Positions 30,281 through 34,473 of a DNA stretch of 64,000 nucleotides are shown piece after piece; position 1 is the first letter of the stretch; the number at the start of each line of letters is the position of its first letter. A program made the translations under genes and the position numbers. The DNA is taken from IMG/VR virus record IMGVR_UViG_3300006794_000002; one strand, written 5' to 3'. The notes below the pieces were generated by a model that saw only the letters and a list, made by a program, of their open reading frames with translations, ran no database searches and had not been told where the DNA came from. This stretch comes from a virus (taxonomy: Duplodnaviria > Heunggongvirae > Uroviricota > Caudoviricetes).

Positions 30281-30312
30281 CGTGCCGGTTCGAAGGCAGA
30301 CACGCGAATTAT

Positions 30313-30388
30313 TGGAGCCGCGCTTCGGATTTGAACCGAAACTAAGACGTTACAAGGGTCTGGTGCTAGCCGTTGACACTAGCGCGAC
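30313..30388 (-). tRNA. tRNA-Thr (anticodon TGT)
   Basis: TGG + acceptor + ttcgg-atttgaa-ccgaa T-arm. Anticodon loop CTTGTAA in the tRNA orientation. Confidence 0.6.
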
Positions 30389-30389
30389 T

Positions 30390-30464
30390 TGGCGCGGGTA
30401 CAAGGATTCGAACCCTGAGTCGCGGGTTTGGAAGCCGCTGGTTTAGCCGTTAACCGACACCCAC
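30390..30464 (-). tRNA. tRNA-Trp (anticodon CCA)
   Basis: Acceptor gcgggta/cacccac. Loop TTCCAAA. Confidence 0.5.
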
Positions 30465-30512
30465 ACATATTGGACAGGACCAAGTTTACTGTCGTTTCCT
30501 GTCATTGGACTG

Positions 30513-30586
30513 TGGCTCTCATGGAAGGAGTCGAACCCTCATCAAACGGTTAACAGCCGCCCGACCTACCCTTGGCCGACACGAGA
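30513..30586 (-). tRNA. tRNA-Asn (anticodon GTT)
   Basis: Folded fully by hand: acceptor TCTCGTG/CATGAGA, loop CTGTTAA. Confidence 0.65.
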
Positions 30587-30662
30587 TTGAACCCCTCTTT
30601 ACGCAATCTAATCGTCACCTTTCGGGTCTTATCCGAACGTGCTAACTTACACTAACAGGGTA

Positions 30663-30738
30663 TGGAGCCGCATATCAGATTCGAACTGATTGCCTCGTTC
30701 TTACCAAGAACTTGCACATCCGCATGTGCTTAGGCGGC
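30663..30738 (-). tRNA. tRNA-Thr (anticodon GGT)
   Basis: T-arm atcag-attcgaa-ctgat. Loop TTGGTAA. One acceptor mismatch. Confidence 0.5.
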
Positions 30739-30740
30739 GC

Positions 30741-30815
30741 TGGACCGGCGAGTGAGATTCGAACTCACGACTTGAAGCGTATGAGACTTCCGTTCTTCCG
30801 CTGAACTATCGACGG
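30741..30815 (-). tRNA. tRNA-Met/Ile2 (anticodon CAT)
   Basis: T-arm gtgag-attcgaa-ctcac. Loop CTCATAC. Confidence 0.55.
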
Positions 30816-30892
30816 TTAATCCTGCTTACCAGATACAGGGGCACTAGCGGGGACACCACCGTAGCGATGCCCTTCCGTGTCGGTCCATATAG

Positions 30893-30979
30893 TTACGCCT
30901 GAGGCGGCGTAGGTGTTGGTCTAGGTGACGGACTTGGCGGTGTCGGCTTAGGTGCCGGTCGCGTTGTAGTCGTTGTCAT
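30893..30979 (-). CDS. small ORF inside the tRNA array: MTTTTTRPAPKPTPPSPSPRPTPTPPQA (28 aa)
   Basis: ATG preceded by GGGAGGtaagcg, a 6-nt SD. Sits in a 220-nt tRNA-free gap. Confidence 0.4.
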   Translation of the reverse strand: MTTTTTRPAPKPTPPSPSPRPTPTPPQA

Positions 30980-31034
30980 CGCTTACCTCCCTTTGATCCA
31001 ATCAAATGGCTTTAAGCCCCTTCTCAACCTCATT

Positions 31035-31109
31035 TGGTACTGCGACGGAGAGTTGAACTCCGACCTCGGACTTGGCAAGCCCGCGTCATAGCCGTTAGAC
31101 GACCACAGT
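31035..31109 (-). tRNA. tRNA-Gly (anticodon GCC)
   Basis: Acceptor actgcga/ccacagt. Anticodon arm cgggc-TTGCCAA-gtccg. Confidence 0.6.
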
Positions 31110-31110
31110 A

Positions 31111-31184
31111 TGGAGCCAATGTAGAGAATCGAACTCTAACCGGGACTTTACGAAAGTCCTGTCCTGCCGTTAGACGACAAAGGC
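31111..31184 (-). tRNA. tRNA-Thr (anticodon CGT), two acceptor mismatches
   Basis: T-arm tagag-aatcgaa-ctcta. Loop TTCGTAA. Two U·U mismatches in the acceptor stem, so possibly a pseudo-tRNA. Confidence 0.45.
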
Positions 31185-31244
31185 TTGTAGTGGTGTACGG
31201 TGTCCCACACTATCCGCCCCGCGTAAGGGCTATAGTCGCGCATT

Positions 31245-31319
31245 TGGTACCCGTTGAAGGATTTGAACCTACAACTTACTGCATGTAAAACAGTCACTCT
31301 ACCGTTGAGTTAAACGGGC
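31245..31319 (-). tRNA. tRNA-Val (anticodon TAC)
   Basis: Loop TTTACAT. Acceptor acccgtt/aacgggc. Confidence 0.55.
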
Positions 31320-31320
31320 T

Positions 31321-31397
31321 TGGTCCGACCTACGAGATTCGAACTCGTATCTCCCTGCTTGAAAGGCAAGTTTCCTAGTCCCTTAGAAGAAGATCGG
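31321..31397 (-). tRNA. tRNA-Glu (anticodon TTC)
   Basis: T-arm acgag-attcgaa-ctcgt. Loop CTTTCAA. Confidence 0.55.
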
Positions 31398-31471
31398 TTG
31401 GTGCAGTCTTTCCCGCTGTCCACGAGCGGTCGGGAGTGATGCATCACCCTTGATCCGAGAACTCGGTTATT

Positions 31472-31546
31472 TGGTAGGCCACGTCAGATTCGAACTGACG
31501 ACTTCTTGCATGTCGAGCAAGCGTTCTGCCACTGAACTAGCAGCCT
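31472..31546 (-). tRNA. tRNA-Val (anticodon GAC), C at position 33
   Basis: T-arm gtcag-attcgaa-ctgac. Anticodon stem cttgc/gcaag with loop TCGACAT. Confidence 0.45.
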
Positions 31547-31587
31547 ATGAACAGGTATAACCGCTCGTAAGCGTCCCTGTTCTCATT

Positions 31588-31671
31588 TGGTACTCCTGAC
31601 AAGATTCGAACTTGTATGCTGTGAGGCACTAGATTTTGAGGCTAGCGTGTCTGCCGTTCCACCACAAGAGC
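31588..31671 (-). tRNA. tRNA-Leu (anticodon CAA), type II
   Basis: 84 nt with a 13-nt variable arm. Loop CTCAAAA. Confidence 0.5.
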
Positions 31672-31782
31672 ATTGTGCTTCATCCGACTTACGTTTCGGA
31701 GCGGAAGCGTGTTCACCATGAAGTCGTGAGTCAACTTCTGCCAACTGTTCCGGCTTATCTCACACACCCGGAACTCATTTAA

Positions 31783-33095: not shown

Positions 33096-33108
33096 TTCAA
33101 CCTCAATG

Positions 33109-33184
33109 TGGCGCTCCTAGTAGGATTCGAACCCACGACAATCCGGGTAGAAACCGGAAACTCTATCCGCTGAGTTATAGAAGC
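33109..33184 (-). tRNA. tRNA-Arg (anticodon TCT)
   Basis: Anticodon stem tccgg/ccgga with loop TTTCTAC. Acceptor fully paired. Confidence 0.6.
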
Positions 33185-33187
33185 ATT

Positions 33188-33263
33188 TGGAGGTTCCTGT
33201 CAGAGTCGAACTGACCAACATGTGGTTTGCAGCCACAGCCCTTAGCCGATTGGGTAAGGAACC
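33188..33263 (-). tRNA. tRNA-Cys (anticodon GCA)
   Basis: Anticodon stem tgtgg/ccaca with loop CTGCAAA. Acceptor fully paired. Confidence 0.6.
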
Positions 33264-33264
33264 T

Positions 33265-33341
33265 TGGCGTCCCCGGAGAGAATCGAACTCCCGTCATCTG
33301 CGTTCGAAGCGCAGCATTCTGATCCGCTGAATTACGGAGAC
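33265..33341 (-). tRNA. tRNA-Arg (anticodon TCG)
   Basis: Anticodon stem ctgcg/cgcag with loop CTTCGAA. Confidence 0.55.
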
Positions 33342-33403
33342 TTATTACGCGACTTACACTACGGTGTTCTGGCAAGAGAAGTGACCGCCGAAGCGCGTTG
33401 ATC

Positions 33404-33479
33404 TGGCGTCCCGCATTGGAATCGAACCAATGACCGCTTCCTTCGCAGGGAAGCATTCTATCCGCTGAACTAGCGGGAC
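33404..33479 (-). tRNA. tRNA-Arg (anticodon GCG)
   Basis: Anticodon stem cttcc/ggaag with loop CTGCGAA. Confidence 0.5.
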
Positions 33480-33480
33480 T

Positions 33481-33554
33481 TGGCTGGCCTGTAAGGATTC
33501 GAACCTCAGTTAACTGCTTCAGAGGCAGTCGTCCTACCACTAGACGATAGGCCA
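33481..33554 (-). tRNA. tRNA-Gln (anticodon CTG)
   Basis: Anticodon stem actgc/gcagt with loop CTCTGAA. Short D-arm. Confidence 0.5.
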
Positions 33555-33556
33555 AT

Positions 33557-33632
33557 TGGTACTTCCTCTTGGAATCGAACCAAGACATCCGGCTTTATAA
33601 GAACCGTGCCCTAACCGTTAGGCTAAGGAAGC
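33557..33632 (-). tRNA. tRNA-Ile (anticodon TAT)
   Basis: Anticodon stem cggtt/agccg with loop CTTATAA. Confidence 0.5.
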
Positions 33633-33637
33633 ATATT

Positions 33638-33714
33638 TGGTAGGCTACCAGAGAGTCGAACTCTGCAAATCCACGTTATCGGCGTGGCCCCTACAACCAG
33701 TTGGGCTGTAGCCT
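33638..33714 (-). tRNA. tRNA-Ile (anticodon GAT), C at position 33
   Basis: Anticodon stem ccacg/cgtgg with loop CCGATAA. Confidence 0.5.
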
Positions 33715-33715
33715 T

Positions 33716-33791
33716 TGGGGTGAATCCTGAGAATCGAACTCAGTTCGCTGGCTTCACAGGCCAGTGCCTTAACCGTTAGGCTAGAAACACC
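33716..33791 (-). tRNA. tRNA-His (anticodon GTG) with encoded G-1
   Basis: Loop CTGTGAA. Discriminator C. Extra 5' G pairs with C73. Two acceptor mismatches. Confidence 0.5.
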
Positions 33792-33793
33792 AT

Positions 33794-33869
33794 TGGTTCC
33801 CCATGTAGGATTCGAACCCACATTCTGGCGGTTCAAAGCCGCAAGTCCTACCGTTAGACGAGAGGGGAA
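33794..33869 (-). tRNA. tRNA-Gln (anticodon TTG)
   Basis: T-arm gtagg-attcgaa-cccac. Loop CTTTGAA. Confidence 0.45.
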
Positions 33870-33970
33870 TAGTCCCGCCAGTCGCTAGCAACGAGAGCGG
33901 GAAGAACTAGTCGCCTTTCCCTGTTCAGGGAAACTTGACTCCGTACGAGCGAAATCGCACGGGCTGTATT

Positions 33971-34046
33971 TGGTGGAGATACCCGGATTTGAACCGAGAT
34001 TCAGCATCTTGCAAGGATGCGAGGTTTCCGTTACACACATATCCCC
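33971..34046 (-). tRNA. tRNA-Ala (anticodon TGC)
   Basis: Anticodon stem gcatc/gatgc with loop CTTGCAA. Acceptor fully paired. Confidence 0.6.
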
Positions 34047-34295
34047 TTGGTGGCTAGCCGGGGAACGATCCCGGTTGTTCCTAAGAAAACTGATTTACAG
34101 TCAGTCCCCGTTACCTTACGGGCAACGTCGCCACAGCGTAGGCGGCACACCTACATTTGCTTTCCTTTCGGTAAGCGCCACAACTACGGTTAACACCCCT
34201 TTCGGACTGTGCCTAGGTTGCGCCTCCACCATACCAAGTCGCTTACACGTCTCGGCTACAGGCTTATCAATTGTTGGCCCGTTCGTCCAACTCTC
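34047..34295 (-). ncRNA. irregular structured RNA: tRNA-like 3' end (T-arm + ACCA) plus Tyr (GTA) anticodon-like hairpin and GNRA-tetraloop hairpins. Could be a degenerate type II tRNA-Tyr or a tmRNA-like element
   Basis: On the minus strand, 5'→3':
- GNRA hairpins (CC-GAAA-GG twice);
- D-like cccg-taaggtaa-cggg;
- actga-CTGTAAA-tcagt;
- ccggg-AUCGUUC-cccgg;
- CUAGCC-A-CCA.

No canonical 5' acceptor partner was found. Confidence 0.35.
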
Positions 34296-34372
34296 TGGTC
34301 TAGATGGCAGGATTCGAACCTGCGACCACAGCCTTCCAAGGGCCGTACGCTAACCGGACTACGCCACATCTA
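34296..34372 (-). tRNA. tRNA-Pro (anticodon TGG)
   Basis: T-arm gcagg-attcgaa-cctgc. Acceptor ctagatg/catctag. Loop CTTGGAA. Confidence 0.55.
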
Positions 34373-34375
34373 GAT

Positions 34376-34453
34376 TGGTTGCGGGAACCTGATTCGAACA
34401 GGCGATCTGCATGGTTATGAGCCAGCCGAGATAGACCACTTCTCTACCCCGCT
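34376..34453 (-). tRNA. degenerate tRNA-like element (possible anticodon CAT)
   Basis: Good T-arm (acctg-attcgaa-caggc) and a 6/7 acceptor, but the anticodon arm forms only 3 bp. Confidence 0.3.
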
Positions 34454-34473
34454 ACACTATTGTATCATCCGTG

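What the first reader, a model, noticed from the sequence alone, without database searches (positions are those of the whole stretch)
30303..34460. Dense ~4.1-kb array of about 34 tRNA genes with encoded CCA on the minus strand, decoding 19 amino acids
Nearly every unit follows the top-strand pattern TGG-N-acceptor(7)-stem-ATTCGAA-stem, and adjacent genes are often separated by only 1–3 nt.

Anticodons decoded by hand:
- Thr TGT/GGT/CGT
- Trp CCA
- Asn GTT
- Met CAT
- Gly GCC/TCC
- Val TAC/GAC
- Glu TTC/CTC
- Leu CAA/TAA/TAG
- Lys TTT/CTT
- Phe GAA
- Ser GCT/TGA
- Asp GTC
- Arg CCT/TCT/TCG/GCG
- Cys GCA
- Gln CTG/TTG
- Ile TAT/GAT
- His GTG (with G-1)
- Ala TGC
- Pro TGG

Only Tyr lacks a canonical gene. 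A Tyr-anticodon hairpin sits in an irregular element (separate finding).

The array lies between the packaging/terminase genes and the nucleotide-metabolism/Rsr block, and is closed by a terminator at 30243–30280.
Basis: seen in the sequence. Interest (0 to 1): 0.55.

Follow-up and report, generated by a model that had tools for sequence, protein, structure and literature searches.

The report
Dense 34-gene phage tRNA array
An uncultured tailed phage carries 34 real tRNA genes packed into 4.1 kb, a nearly complete private decoding set; this is a well-known kind of phage feature, and is notable here only for its density and for its ordered conservation across a clade of uncultured relatives.

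Summary
ARAGORN finds 33 minus-strand tRNA genes between 30313 and 34453. All 34 encode CCA, and 17 of the 33 junctions are 3 nt or shorter.

The set covers 19 amino acids plus an initiator-like Met. Tyr is represented only by a diverged, non-canonical Tyr(GUA)-like element.

The window is a tailed phage with no close cultured relative (large terminase at most 27% identical). Eight metagenomic relatives carry the same array in the same gene order at the same site, with 14 to 38 tRNA genes on the stretches recovered. A more distant relative has only 6 tRNA genes there.

Orthologous tRNAs are 45-100% identical but keep their cloverleaves: 355 of 700 predicted pairs show compensatory changes, so the genes are under selection. 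Two positionally conserved promoter-like motifs and a terminator frame the array.

The most likely role is to supply the phage with its own tRNA pool, either because the host pool is mismatched (probably a high-GC actinobacterium) or because it is depleted. The host was not identified.

Verdict: a new member of a known kind, with moderate to low surprise.

The parts
34459..34477 (-). Promoter-like motif TTGACA-N4-TGATACAAT, ending 5 nt upstream of the first tRNA
   Evidence: The motif class is enriched in the window: 8 matches against 0.34 expected. A TTGACA...TGnTAYRRT motif sits at the same position upstream of Met-1 in L003, L019, L020, L021 and L022.
34376..34453 (-). tRNA-Met(CAT), initiator-like
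   Evidence: ARAGORN; Rfam 39.8 bits. The A1xA72 mismatch and A11:U24 are conserved in 4 relatives, and the sequence resembles E. coli tRNA-fMet. The three G:C pairs of the anticodon stem are not present.
34296..34373 (-). tRNA-Pro(TGG)
   Evidence: ARAGORN; Rfam 64.3 bits
34133..34295 (-). Conserved structured spacer RNA of unknown function between Pro and the Tyr-like element
   Evidence: Alignments and RNAalifold show covarying hairpins and invariant blocks. No Rfam hit.
34048..34132 (-). Diverged tRNA-Tyr(GTA)-like element, orthologous in position to the canonical Tyr gene of relatives; function uncertain
   Evidence: Alignment to L003, L019 and L020 Tyr genes. It folds with a 3-bp acceptor, a perfect anticodon arm and a T-arm with loop AUCGUUC. 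It is not called by ARAGORN or Rfam.
33971..34046 (-). tRNA-Ala(TGC)
   Evidence: ARAGORN (start offset by 2); Rfam 42.2 bits at 33974-34046
33794..33868 (-). tRNA-Gln(TTG)
33716..33791 (-). tRNA-His(GTG), including the encoded G-1
   Evidence: G at 33791 lies opposite C73
33638..33714 (-). tRNA-Ile(GAT); C33 in this copy
   Evidence: ARAGORN; no Rfam hit; 16 compensatory pairs among orthologues; C33
33557..33632 (-). tRNA-Ile(TAT)
   Evidence: 95% identical to the L003 orthologue
33481..33554 (-). tRNA-Gln(CTG)
33404..33479 (-). tRNA-Arg(GCG)
33265..33341 (-). tRNA-Arg(TCG)
33188..33263 (-). tRNA-Cys(GCA)
33109..33184 (-). tRNA-Arg(TCT)
32859..32934 (-). tRNA-Arg(CCT)
32832..32850 (-). Internal promoter-like motif TTGACA-N4-TGATATAAT, 10 nt upstream of Gly(TCC)
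   Evidence: the same motif lies upstream of Gly(TCC) in L003 and L019
32745..32821 (-). tRNA-Gly(TCC)
32658..32742 (-). tRNA-Leu(TAG)
32525..32599 (-). tRNA-Lys(CTT); C33
32447..32523 (-). tRNA with anticodon TAA (Leu by anticodon); 77 nt with a short variable arm
   Evidence: ARAGORN; no Rfam hit in the window, but the L003 orthologue scores 45 bits; alignment
32368..32445 (-). tRNA-Asp(GTC); U37 in this copy
   Evidence: ARAGORN; no Rfam hit; orthologues score 57-60 bits; U37
32233..32320 (-). tRNA-Ser(TGA), with a reduced D-loop
   Evidence: ARAGORN at ps80; Rfam tRNA-clan hit of 37.3 bits; cloverleaf fold; coordinates
32144..32231 (-). tRNA-Ser(GCT)
32025..32100 (-). tRNA-Phe(GAA)
31947..32021 (-). 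tRNA-Lys(TTT)
31870..31945 (-). tRNA-Glu(CTC)
31588..31671 (-). tRNA-Leu(CAA)
31472..31546 (-). tRNA-Val(GAC); C33 in this copy
31321..31397 (-). tRNA-Glu(TTC)
31245..31319 (-). tRNA-Val(TAC)
   Evidence: 65 bits, the best-scoring gene
31111..31184 (-). tRNA-Thr(CGT)
31035..31109 (-). tRNA-Gly(GCC)
30741..30815 (-). tRNA-Met(CAT), elongator-like (U11:A24, paired 1:72)
30663..30738 (-). tRNA-Thr(GGT)
   Evidence: ARAGORN; no Rfam hit in the window, but the L019 orthologue scores 40 bits; 100% identical to L003 over 78 nt
30592..30660 (-). tRNA-like relic, probably not a decoding tRNA
   Evidence: Rfam tRNA 20 bits, E=1.3. The positional counterparts are called 'Phe(gaa)' in L003 and L015, the element is absent in L019, and the anticodon loops are not conserved.
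30513..30586 (-). tRNA-Asn(GTT)
30390..30464 (-). tRNA-Trp(CCA)
30313..30388 (-). tRNA-Thr(TGT), last gene of the array
30240..30277 (-). Intrinsic-terminator-like hairpin plus T-run, closing the array before the packaging genes
   Evidence: stem 30266-30247, followed by TTTTGTT; full extent from the sequence

Best explanation
This is a functional tRNA operon cluster belonging to an uncultured tailed phage.

**What it contains.** There are 34 co-oriented tRNA genes with encoded CCA ends. They include an initiator-like and an elongator Met, every possible U34 isoacceptor, Ile-UAU and Arg-GCG. A decayed Tyr gene and a tRNA-like relic are also present.

**How it is probably expressed.** The genes are most likely transcribed as polycistronic precursors from at least two phage promoters, one directly upstream of Met-1 and one upstream of Gly-UCC. 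Transcription would stop at the intrinsic terminator just before the small and large terminase genes. Host RNase P would cut the 5' ends. The 1-3-nt trailers after each CCA would be trimmed by 3' exonucleases, so no CCA addition is needed.

**What it probably does.** The mature tRNAs give the phage its own decoder set. By standard wobble it reads 51 of 61 sense codons, and 59 of 61 if U34 reads all four codons in family boxes. This would keep translation of the balanced-codon phage genes (GC3 0.55) from being limited by the host tRNA pool.

My preferred reason is a mismatch with a GC-rich, probably actinobacterial, host. Protection against depletion or cleavage of host tRNA during infection is a strong second reason that is not exclusive of the first.

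**Shown versus inferred.**
- Shown: the genes, their conservation and selection on structure, the CCA ends, the motifs and the phage context.
- Inferred: transcription units, processing, aminoacylation, host identity and the selective advantage.

**What the confidence covers.** The confidence given applies to 'a functional phage tRNA operon that supplements the host tRNA pool'. Within that, I put codon supply to a mismatched host at about 0.5 and counter-depletion at about 0.3.
For: **The genes are real.**
- 33 are called by default ARAGORN and 1 more at a relaxed threshold; Rfam supports 30 of them.
- All encode CCA.

**Selection on structure.** Across 34 orthologue families from 3-4 relatives, sequence identity is 45-100%. 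Of 700 RNAalifold pairs, 355 show changes on both sides that keep the pair, and only 73 of 2336 cells are unpaired.

**Conserved order and position in independent phage contigs.**
- L003/L004/L005: 36 tRNAs.
- L019: 35 tRNAs.
- L022: at least 36 in the array.
- L025: at least 24; L024: at least 16.
- L021: at least 14.
- L020 and L015 carry the start and the end of the array.
- All lie downstream of Rsr, ribonucleotide reductase and ThyX.

**Expression signals.**
- The promoter-like motif is enriched (8 against 0.34 expected) and positionally conserved before Met-1 and Gly-UCC.
- The terminator is found.

**Phage context.** Large terminase, portal, major capsid, ribonucleotide reductase, ThyX, thymidine kinase and TROVE.

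**Support for codon supply.**
- All 14 U34 anticodons are present.
- The distant relative L007 keeps only six tRNAs at this site: Gln-UUG, Ile-UAU, Ser-UGA, Leu-CAA, Glu-UUC and Thr-UGU. All read A-ending codons or UUG.
- Phage GC is 51% and GC3 is 0.55, with 17-20% A-ending codons.
- The nearest cellular Rsr homologues are high-GC actinomycetes.
- The nearest cultured-phage Rsr is in Streptomyces phage BRock. It sits among BRock's 29 tRNA genes, in a stretch of 52% GC.

**Precedent.** Phage tRNA clusters of 15-37 genes at 2-10 per kb are documented (PMC6409571).
Against: **Host unknown.** The host was not identified. There is no prophage or tRNA match in GTDB representative genomes, so no phage-versus-host codon comparison could be made.

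**Codon supply alone is not enough.** The set also contains many readers of G/C-ending codons (CUG, CUC, CUU, CGU, CCU, GCC, GCG). A GC-rich host should already supply these, so pure codon compensation does not explain why the set is nearly complete.

**Blemishes in this genome's copies.**
- Tyr is not recognisable as a tRNA.
- Ser-UGA has a reduced D-loop.
- Ile-GAU, Lys-CUU and Val-GAC have C33, and Asp has U37.
- Met-1 has a weakened anticodon stem.
- Four genes get no Rfam hit.

**Weaknesses in the expression model.**
- The TTGACA to -10 spacing is only 7 nt, which is not a canonical sigma-70 geometry, and the generic promoter scan did not call these sites.
- No expression, processing or charging data exist.
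Confidence: 0.85

Rival explanations
1. Counter-defence or host-shutoff reading. The array exists mainly to replace host tRNAs that are cleaved by host anticodon nucleases (VapC, PrrC, colicin-like, PARIS or retron effectors) or that disappear when the phage degrades host nucleic acids. The phage copies would differ enough to escape cleavage. The neighbouring Rsr/Y-RNA-like module and the cREC-domain protein would handle damaged RNA.
For: - The near-complete set includes tRNAs a host would not lack.
- Orthologues diverge very fast while keeping their structure.
- Some copies have odd anticodon-loop positions 33 and 37, which is the type of change proposed to block anticodon nucleases (PMC10264068).
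- A TROVE/Rsr gene lies about 4 kb upstream, with Y-RNA-like repeats.
- A cyclic-phosphate-processing receiver domain protein is at 45845-46288.
- Viral tRNAs are shown to neutralise PARIS and retron defences in other systems (PMC11464382, PMC11555353).
Against: - 30 of the 34 anticodon loops are fully canonical, and most are identical among relatives.
- The odd loops are mostly private to this genome and could equally be decay.
- No RNA ligase or RtcB was found in the window.
- The host and its nucleases are unknown, so no cleavage-site comparison is possible.
Confidence: 0.3
2. Relaxed or decaying cargo. The array was inherited from an ancestor that needed it and is now partly dispensable in this lineage, so a fraction of the genes (Tyr, possibly Ser-UGA, Asp, Ile-GAU, Val-GAC, Met-1) are becoming pseudogenes.
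For: - Tyr is canonical, or nearly so, in all seven relatives that cover the site, but is unrecognisable here (against 35, 85).
- Several defects are private to this genome.
- Rfam scores of the window's Asp and Leu-UAA fall below detection, while their orthologues score 45-60 bits.
- A tRNA-like relic lies between Thr-GGU and Asn.
Against: - The great majority of genes keep intact cloverleaves with abundant compensatory change.
- All retain CCA.
- The gene order is intact.
- Decay of a few members does not contradict function of the array as a whole.
- Assembly or sequencing errors cannot be excluded for single-base oddities.
Confidence: 0.25
3. The array is not phage-borne. It would be a bacterial long tRNA array (an L-array, or a mycobacterial-type array unit) on a chromosome or plasmid that happens to lie next to a prophage.
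For: - Horizontally transferred bacterial L-arrays of up to 43 tRNA genes exist (PMC8421152).
- A tyrosine recombinase is present at 57497-58297.
Against: - The array is embedded in one co-directional gene block, between phage nucleotide-metabolism genes and the terminase, portal and capsid genes.
- The same embedding recurs in every relative.
- No cellular housekeeping genes were seen in the window.
- There is no match in 185,579 representative bacterial and archaeal genomes.
Confidence: 0.03

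Closest known systems
Phage tRNA gene clusters as surveyed by Morgado & Vicente 2019 (PMC6409571), e.g. cluster C1 mycobacteriophages (Bxz1/Rizal type, about 33-36 tRNAs; PMC10264068, PMC4472892)
   Same: - Dozens of co-oriented tRNA genes in a tailed-phage genome.
- The size (34 genes) and density (8.2 per kb) fall within the reported ranges of 15-37 genes and 2-10 per kb.
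- The isotype set is nearly complete.
- A Ro60/Rsr gene is present in the same genome, as in C1 mycobacteriophages (PMC4201824).
   Different: - No sequence relationship to these phages was detected: there is no megablast hit, and the best cultured-phage match to the large terminase is 27% identical.
- No tmRNA is present.
- The probable genome is much smaller: the related contig L019 is 69.7 kb, against a median of 148 kb for cluster-bearing phages.
- A tyrosine recombinase is present, whereas most cluster-bearing phages lack an integrase.
- The set uses Arg-GCG and Ile-UAU.
Streptomyces phage BRock (Borockvirus) tRNA region with an embedded Ro-like protein
   Same: - It holds the closest cultured-phage Rsr homologue (51% identity).
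- Its Rsr sits among 29 tRNA genes, in a stretch of about 52% GC, and the phage infects Streptomyces (which I recall to be a high-GC genus; not tested here). This is the same logic of low-GC phage, many tRNAs and Rsr.
   Different: - BRock's tRNAs are spread over about 12 kb and interleaved with protein genes. Some are on the opposite strand.
- The gene order differs.
- It uses Arg-ACG rather than GCG and lacks Ile-UAU.
- RNA ligase genes lie nearby.
- The structural genes are unrelated at the level tested.
T4 and T5 tRNA gene clusters (textbook knowledge, not tested here)
   Same: - Polycistronic phage tRNA transcripts with very short spacers.
- Processing by host RNase P and exonucleases.
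- Small stable non-tRNA RNAs interspersed in the cluster (T4 species 1 and 2), comparable to the structured spacers seen here.
   Different: - T4 has 8 tRNAs and T5 about two dozen.
- Several T4 tRNAs lack an encoded CCA, whereas all 34 here encode it.
- The hosts and phage lineages are unrelated.
Bacterial long tRNA arrays (L-arrays; PMC8421152)
   Same: Long, dense, same-strand arrays of supernumerary tRNA genes that move horizontally.
   Different: Those are chromosomal or plasmid-borne and are induced under translational stress. This array is embedded in phage genes, and no copy was found in representative bacterial genomes.

Membership tests
tRNA genes (Rfam RF00005 / canonical cloverleaf) | Cloverleaf recognised by a dedicated tRNA predictor | tested here: met
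   33 genes at the ARAGORN default threshold, plus Ser-UGA at the relaxed threshold. The Tyr-like element and the 30592-30660 relic are not recognised.
tRNA genes (Rfam RF00005 / canonical cloverleaf) | Covariance-model score at or above the Rfam gathering threshold (29 bits) | tested here: met
   Met for 28 genes with the tRNA model (38.5-65 bits), and 2 more are reported through the tRNA-Sec model of the same clan. Not met for Thr-GGT, Asp, Leu-TAA and Ile-GAT in the window, though their orthologues in relatives pass.
tRNA genes (Rfam RF00005 / canonical cloverleaf) | Base pairs maintained by compensatory substitutions among homologues | tested here: met
   355 of 700 pairs show double changes, and 3% of cells are unpaired, over 34 orthologue families. 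The structures came from RNAalifold on the same alignments, so the figures lean somewhat towards pairing.
tRNA genes (Rfam RF00005 / canonical cloverleaf) | Expression, processing and aminoacylation | not testable with these tools
   This needs tRNA-seq or acid-gel northern blots of infected cells.
Phage tRNA gene cluster (sensu PMC6409571) | Located in a virus genome | tested here: met
   Portal, SU10-type capsid and large terminase genes lie directly downstream on the same strand. The same arrangement is seen in relatives.
Phage tRNA gene cluster (sensu PMC6409571) | High tRNA gene number and density (reported: 15-37 genes, about 2-10 per kb) | tested here: met
   34 genes in 4141 bp, or 8.2 per kb.
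Cluster C1 mycobacteriophage or Borockvirus lineage | Sequence relatedness of hallmark genes or genome | tested here: not met
   No megablast hit for the array. The best cultured-phage large terminase match is 27% (Brevibacillus phage Emery), and no Mycobacterium or Streptomyces phage appears among the best-covering hits. Rsr is 51% identical to BRock's, but the array order and content differ.
Bacterial L-array | Resides in a bacterial chromosome or plasmid | tested here: not met
   The flanks are phage genes. Two scans of the GTDB representative genomes found nothing.
YrlA-type Y RNA (RF02553), considered for the Pro-Tyr spacer plus Tyr-like element | Match to the YrlA covariance model; 5' GNCGAAN0-1G motif followed by T-arm, closing stem-loop and D-arm | tested here: not met
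   No YrlA hit at E<=10 on 34040-34300. The only YrlA hit in the array (18.6 bits, E=2.7, at 31266-31376) spans a tRNA dimer, which is a known artefact (PMC4201824). The arm order of the spacer plus Tyr-like element is that of a tRNA, not the permuted YrlA order.

The most novel reading that the evidence does not exclude
The array, together with the Rsr/Y-RNA-like module 4 kb upstream, could be a self-contained tRNA supply and quality-control system. It would free phage translation from the host tRNA pool, and also from the host's anticodon-editing enzymes: it uses genetically encoded Ile-UAU instead of a lysidine-modified CAU, and Arg-GCG instead of inosine-modified ACG.

Within it, the conserved 163-nt structured RNA upstream of tRNA-Tyr would be a new non-coding RNA that controls maturation of the Tyr tRNA or has taken over its function. 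Its invariant UGGUGGAG can pair with the tRNA-Tyr 3' end. In this phage, that RNA would have replaced a canonical tRNA-Tyr.
Probability: 0.12. Interest if true: 0.6.

Novelty: new member of a known kind. Interest (0 to 1): 0.33.

Why it matters
Large phage tRNA arrays are established biology, so the array itself is not a discovery. Three things give it some value.

1. **A previously undescribed phage clade.** It defines an uncultured clade with the layout Rsr, ribonucleotide reductase, ThyX, tRNA array. The same locus ranges from 6 to at least 36 tRNA genes with conserved order. That is a natural series for testing why phages accumulate tRNAs, whether for codon supply or for escape from tRNA-targeting defences.

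2. **High density in a probably small genome.** With 34 tRNAs in a genome of probably about 70 kb, it lies at the dense, small-genome edge of what has been catalogued.

3. **Concrete, testable oddities.**
   - One lineage has lost a recognisable tRNA-Tyr while keeping an adjacent conserved structured RNA.
   - The set systematically uses Ile-UAU and Arg-GCG.
   - Leu-UAA tRNAs are class-I sized.

Tried and rejected
**Searches for relatives and for the host**
- Megablast of the array against 50,697 phage records gave no match.
- Three exact or degenerate pattern scans of IMG/VR with conserved tRNA cores (Ala, Thr-GGT, Pro), one degenerate Thr-GGT scan, and one scan for the spacer element all gave no match. 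IMG/VR holds only more distant, tRNA-less relatives (L001 and L002).
- Host identification failed. A large-terminase profile scan and a Thr-GGT pattern scan of GTDB representative genomes both found nothing. The actinobacterial host is therefore only an inference from Rsr homologues.

**Non-tRNA elements**
- No Rfam family explains the Pro-Tyr spacer, the Tyr-like element or the region upstream of rsr, even at E<=10 on short inputs.
- The spacer was considered as a small ORF (39 codons in the window). This was rejected because indels that are not multiples of three among relatives destroy the frame, while the stems covary.
- The long-range pairing of UGGUGGAG with the tRNA-Tyr 3' end, predicted by RNAalifold, is not supported in L021, where the upstream motif changes without compensation. 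It is left as unproven.

**Small ORFs in the spacers**
- The three candidates are 56 aa and Cys-rich (32925-33095), 23 aa and hydrophobic (31783-31854), and 28 aa and Pro/Thr-rich (30893-30979).
- The 56-aa ORF was tested: it has no PHROG hit and no similarity to the one small ORF in L003's array.
- The two shorter ORFs lie in insertions that are absent from L003.
- All three were therefore not counted as parts of the array.

**Other checks**
- The generic sigma-70 scan found only one weak site in the region, which is fewer than in shuffled sequence.
- A spurious 'Val-gac' call and several reverse-strand calls at relaxed ARAGORN thresholds overlap real genes and were discarded.

Full report

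Yes. ARAGORN on the whole 64-kb window reports 33 tRNA genes and no tmRNA. All 33 lie on the minus strand between 30313 and 34453, and none lies elsewhere.

The only listed gene that default ARAGORN misses is Ser(TGA).
- ARAGORN finds it at a relaxed threshold.
- Rfam reports a 37-bit hit there through a model of the tRNA clan.
- The sequence folds as a cloverleaf with a 7-bp acceptor and a long variable arm.
- Its orthologues in relatives are called at default settings.
- Its exact span, including CCA, is 32233-32320.

The total is therefore 34 genes, with 33 distinct anticodons because CAT occurs twice.

The Rfam tRNA model passes its gathering score for 25 genes in the whole-window scan. 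In a focused scan it hits 28 genes, plus 2 reported through the tRNA-Sec model. Four ARAGORN genes get no Rfam hit: Thr-GGT, Asp-GTC, Leu-TAA and Ile-GAT.

All 34 genes end in an encoded CCA. Seventeen of the 33 junctions are 3 nt or shorter. tRNA sequence fills 63% of the 4141 bp, which is 8.2 genes per kb.

G-1 of tRNA-His (33791) lies opposite C73 and can be read in the sequence. The terminator-like hairpin with its T-run is found at 30240-30277.

**2. What is the surrounding element?**

The array sits inside a long block of co-directional genes on the minus strand.
- Upstream: a TROVE/Rsr (Ro60-like) protein, class I ribonucleotide reductase, ThyX and thymidine kinase.
- Downstream: a probable small terminase, the large terminase, portal, an SU10-type major capsid protein and a 2001-aa tape-measure-sized ORF.

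Elsewhere in the window there are an ArdC-like protein, a cyclic-phosphate-processing receiver (cREC) domain protein, a tyrosine recombinase and an RNase T/Rv2179c-like exonuclease.

GC content is about 51% throughout. This is a tailed phage.

It has no close cultured relative. Megablast of the array finds nothing, and the best cultured-phage large terminase is 27% identical.

**3. Relatives**

Protein look-ups on the large terminase and Rsr retrieved metagenomic contigs that carry the same array, in the same gene order, at the same genomic position.

| Locus | Relatedness | tRNA genes found |
|---|---|---|
| L003/L004/L005 | Large terminase 71% | 36 |
| L019 (69.7-kb ENA contig) | Rsr 74% | 35 |
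| L022 | Rsr 62% | at least 36 in the array, with extra Pro-CGG, Leu-CAG, Ser-CGA and Ser-GGA |
| L025 | Rsr 63% | at least 24 |
| L024 | Rsr 66% | at least 16 |
| L021 | Rsr 62% | at least 14 |
| L020 | Rsr 67% | start of the array |
| L015 | Large terminase 88% | end of the array |

The core order is Met-Pro-Tyr-Ala-Gln-His-Ile-Ile-Gln-Arg-Arg-Cys-Arg-Arg-Gly-Leu-Lys-..., and it is shared by all of them.

A more distant relative, L007 (large terminase 59%), has only six tRNA genes between ThyX and the terminase. They are Gln-UUG, Ile-UAU, Ser-UGA, Leu-CAA, Glu-UUC and Thr-UGU. L001, L002 and L006 have none in the sequence recovered.

The array is thus a lineage trait that grew from a small core.

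**4. Are the genes functional?**

I aligned the 34 orthologue families, with 3-4 sequences each. Identity to the window copy ranges from 45% to 100%. Of the 700 RNAalifold pairs, 355 show changes on both sides that preserve pairing, and only 73 of 2336 cells are unpaired.

That is the signature of selection for cloverleaf structure, not of dead sequence.

Anticodon loops are canonical (Y32-U33-NNN-R37) in 30 of the 34 window genes.

The first CAT gene has an A1xA72 mismatch and A11:U24 in all four relatives, and it resembles E. coli tRNA-fMet. It lacks the three G:C pairs of the anticodon stem. I call it initiator-like.

The second CAT gene has a paired 1:72 and U11:A24, so it is elongator-like.

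This genome's copies carry several private blemishes:
- C33 in Ile-GAU and Val-GAC, and in Lys-CUU (the last shared with L003);
- U37 in Asp;
- an extra base that weakens the Met-1 anticodon stem;
- a 4-nt D-loop in Ser-UGA.

**5. Tyr**

In every relative that covers the site, a Tyr(GTA) gene lies just upstream of Ala or Asn. ARAGORN calls it at default settings in L003, L019, L021, L022, L024 and L025, and only at the relaxed threshold in L020.

The window has an orthologous element at 34048-34132 (alignments). It has:
- a perfect anticodon arm (ACUGA-CUGUAAA-UCAGU);
- a variable arm;
- a T-arm whose loop reads AUCGUUC, with positions 54 and 58 swapped;
- a long D-like hairpin;
- only about 3 acceptor pairs.

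Neither ARAGORN at ps60 nor Rfam at E<=10 recognises it as a tRNA. Tyr codons make up 3.4% of the phage's codons.

The comparative data add that this is a lineage-specific divergence of a gene that is normal in the relatives.

**6. Expression signals**

A motif TTGACA-N4-TGATAYAAT occurs 8 times in the window with at most 1 mismatch, against 0.34 expected.
- One copy ends 5 nt upstream of Met-1 (34459-34477).
- Another ends 10 nt upstream of Gly-UCC (32832-32850).

Equivalent TTGACA...TGnTATAGT motifs occupy the same two positions in L003 and L019. One lies before Met-1 in L020. L021 and L022 have a TTGACA and an extended -10 at canonical spacing before Met-1.

I infer at least two promoters. 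Together with the terminator, this gives two or more polycistronic tRNA transcripts that end before the packaging genes.

Processing by RNase P and 3' exonucleases is inferred from general tRNA biology. It was not tested.

**7. Decoding capacity and likely role**

By standard wobble, the 34 anticodons read 51 of the 61 sense codons, which is 85% of the phage's codon usage. The unread codons are the two Tyr codons and the pyrimidine-ending codons of the Leu-CUN, Ser-UCN, Pro and Ala boxes. These boxes have only a U34 tRNA, and four-way U34 reading would cover them.

All 14 possible U34 anticodons are present. Ile-AUA is read by a genetically encoded UAU, and Arg-CGY by GCG rather than ACG. From my own knowledge, this would make decoding independent of TilS and TadA editing. 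It was not tested.

Phage codon usage is balanced (GC3 0.55), with 17-20% A-ending codons, more in the structural genes.

The closest cellular Rsr homologues (51-54% identity) are from Streptomyces, Nonomuraea, Actinomadura and related actinomycetes, which I recall to be high-GC. The closest cultured-phage Rsr (51%) is in Streptomyces phage BRock, where it sits among 29 tRNA genes in a region of 52% GC.

Two further facts point the same way. The six-gene set of L007 reads only A-ending codons or UUG. The U34 series is complete.

Together these make supply of tRNAs to a GC-rich host my preferred explanation.

The near-complete set, the RNA-damage-associated neighbours (Rsr, cREC) and the published evidence that phage tRNAs evade tRNA-targeting defences (PMC10264068, PMC11464382, PMC11555353) keep the counter-defence reading alive.

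The host could not be identified, so the two readings cannot be separated here.

**8. Comparison with what is known**

Phage tRNA clusters of 15-37 genes at 2-10 genes per kb have been catalogued. Only a few contain all 20 isotypes, most are in virulent phages, and the median genome is 148 kb (PMC6409571). Cluster C1 mycobacteriophages average 33 tRNAs (PMC10264068) and also encode Ro60 with YrlA RNAs (PMC4201824).

The present array falls inside those ranges. It is at the dense end, probably in a small genome of about 70 kb that also has a tyrosine recombinase. It shows no detectable sequence relationship to the catalogued lineages.

It is therefore a new member of a known kind.

**9. Other things seen**

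These are listed under items noticed in passing:
- the conserved structured RNA between Pro and Tyr;
- Y-RNA-like repeats upstream of rsr;
- the tRNA-like relic between Thr-GGU and Asn;
- class-I-sized Leu tRNAs;
- the perfectly conserved Thr-GGU gene.

Noticed in passing
window 34133-34295 (-); L003:4614-4755, L019:7423-7578, L020:12326-12520, partly L021:12394-12557: A conserved structured RNA of about 163 nt lies between tRNA-Pro and the Tyr gene. It has a hairpin with a covarying stem (one pair shows all four pair types) and an invariant loop ACGAACGGG. It also has an invariant block AUGGUGGAGGCGC, a variable hairpin, a GAAA-tetraloop hairpin, and the hairpin GUAGGUG-UGC-CGCCUAC. UGGUGGAG is complementary to the tRNA-Tyr 3' end in L003 and L019 but not in L021. 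The element is absent in L022, L024 and L025. No Rfam family matches it.
   Followed up: partly
window 40200-40700 (-), directly upstream of rsr; L019:1370-1940, L020:5970-6285, L021:4185-4885, L022:7215-8035: There are four tandem units. Each starts with GRTGCGWAG-N6-GRGTTACTTC, at 40696, 40585, 40423 and 40273. Three of the units continue with tRNA-like pieces. For example, the 40585 unit has an anticodon-like hairpin, a GGCCG-TTCGAAT-CGGTC T-arm, an AACCGGGA-CCA-TCCCGGTT stem-loop and a TAGTGGTAA D-like loop. This is the YrlA-type Y RNA architecture described in PMC4201824, on the same strand and adjacent to rsr. However, the Rfam YrlA model gives no hit at E<=10.
   Followed up: partly
window 30592-30660 (-); L003:8828-8895; L015:188-261: A tRNA-like relic lies between Thr-GGU and Asn. 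In the window it scores 20 bits against the Rfam tRNA model. Its counterparts are called 'Phe(gaa)' in L003 (68 nt) and L015 (74 nt), and it is absent in L019. The anticodon loops differ among the three (AUAAGAC, UCGAAAG, CUGAAUC), so it is unlikely to be a decoding tRNA.
   Followed up: partly
window 32447-32523 (-); also L003:6830-6906, L019:9059-9134, L022:17259-17335: The tRNA with the Leu anticodon UAA is only 76-77 nt long and has a 5-nt variable region (class-I size) in all relatives. In some relatives the Leu-UAG, Leu-CAA and Leu-CAG genes are also 77-78 nt. Whether LeuRS charges them is unknown.
   Followed up: no
window 30661-30738 (-) versus L003:8751-8828: tRNA-Thr(GGU) is 100% identical over 78 nt between the window and L003, while neighbouring tRNAs are 60-90% identical. 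It has A8 and a long D-stem, and it gets no Rfam hit in the window.
   Followed up: no
window 34459-34889 (-), 42502-42520 (-), 58236-58254 (+): The motif TTGACA-N4-TGNTAYAAT, with only 7 nt between the two hexamers, recurs: 8 matches against 0.34 expected. Several copies lie inside the 3' half of the thymidine kinase gene (34538, 34694, 34871). It may be a phage-specific promoter or a regulator site.
   Followed up: partly
window 32925-33095 (-), 31783-31854 (-), 30893-30979 (-): Three small ORFs lie in array spacers: a 56-aa Cys-rich ORF whose stop overlaps the start of Arg-CCU, a 23-aa hydrophobic ORF with a GGAGGA ribosome-binding site, and a 28-aa Pro/Thr-rich ORF. None is conserved in L003, and the 56-aa ORF has no PHROG match.
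   Followed up: partly
window 45845-46288 (+) and 1370-2065 (+): There is a cyclic-phosphate-processing receiver (cREC) domain protein (E=4e-11) and an Rv2179c/RNase T-like 3'-5' exonuclease (E=2.5e-11; PHROGs files it under a DNA polymerase exonuclease subunit). With Rsr, these hint at an RNA repair or trimming theme. No RNA ligase was found.
   Followed up: no
window 40213 (rsr start): The mechanical ORF for rsr (GTG at 40213, 534 aa) overlaps the last Y-RNA-like unit. Homologues are 522-526 aa, so the true start is probably about 10 codons downstream.
   Followed up: no
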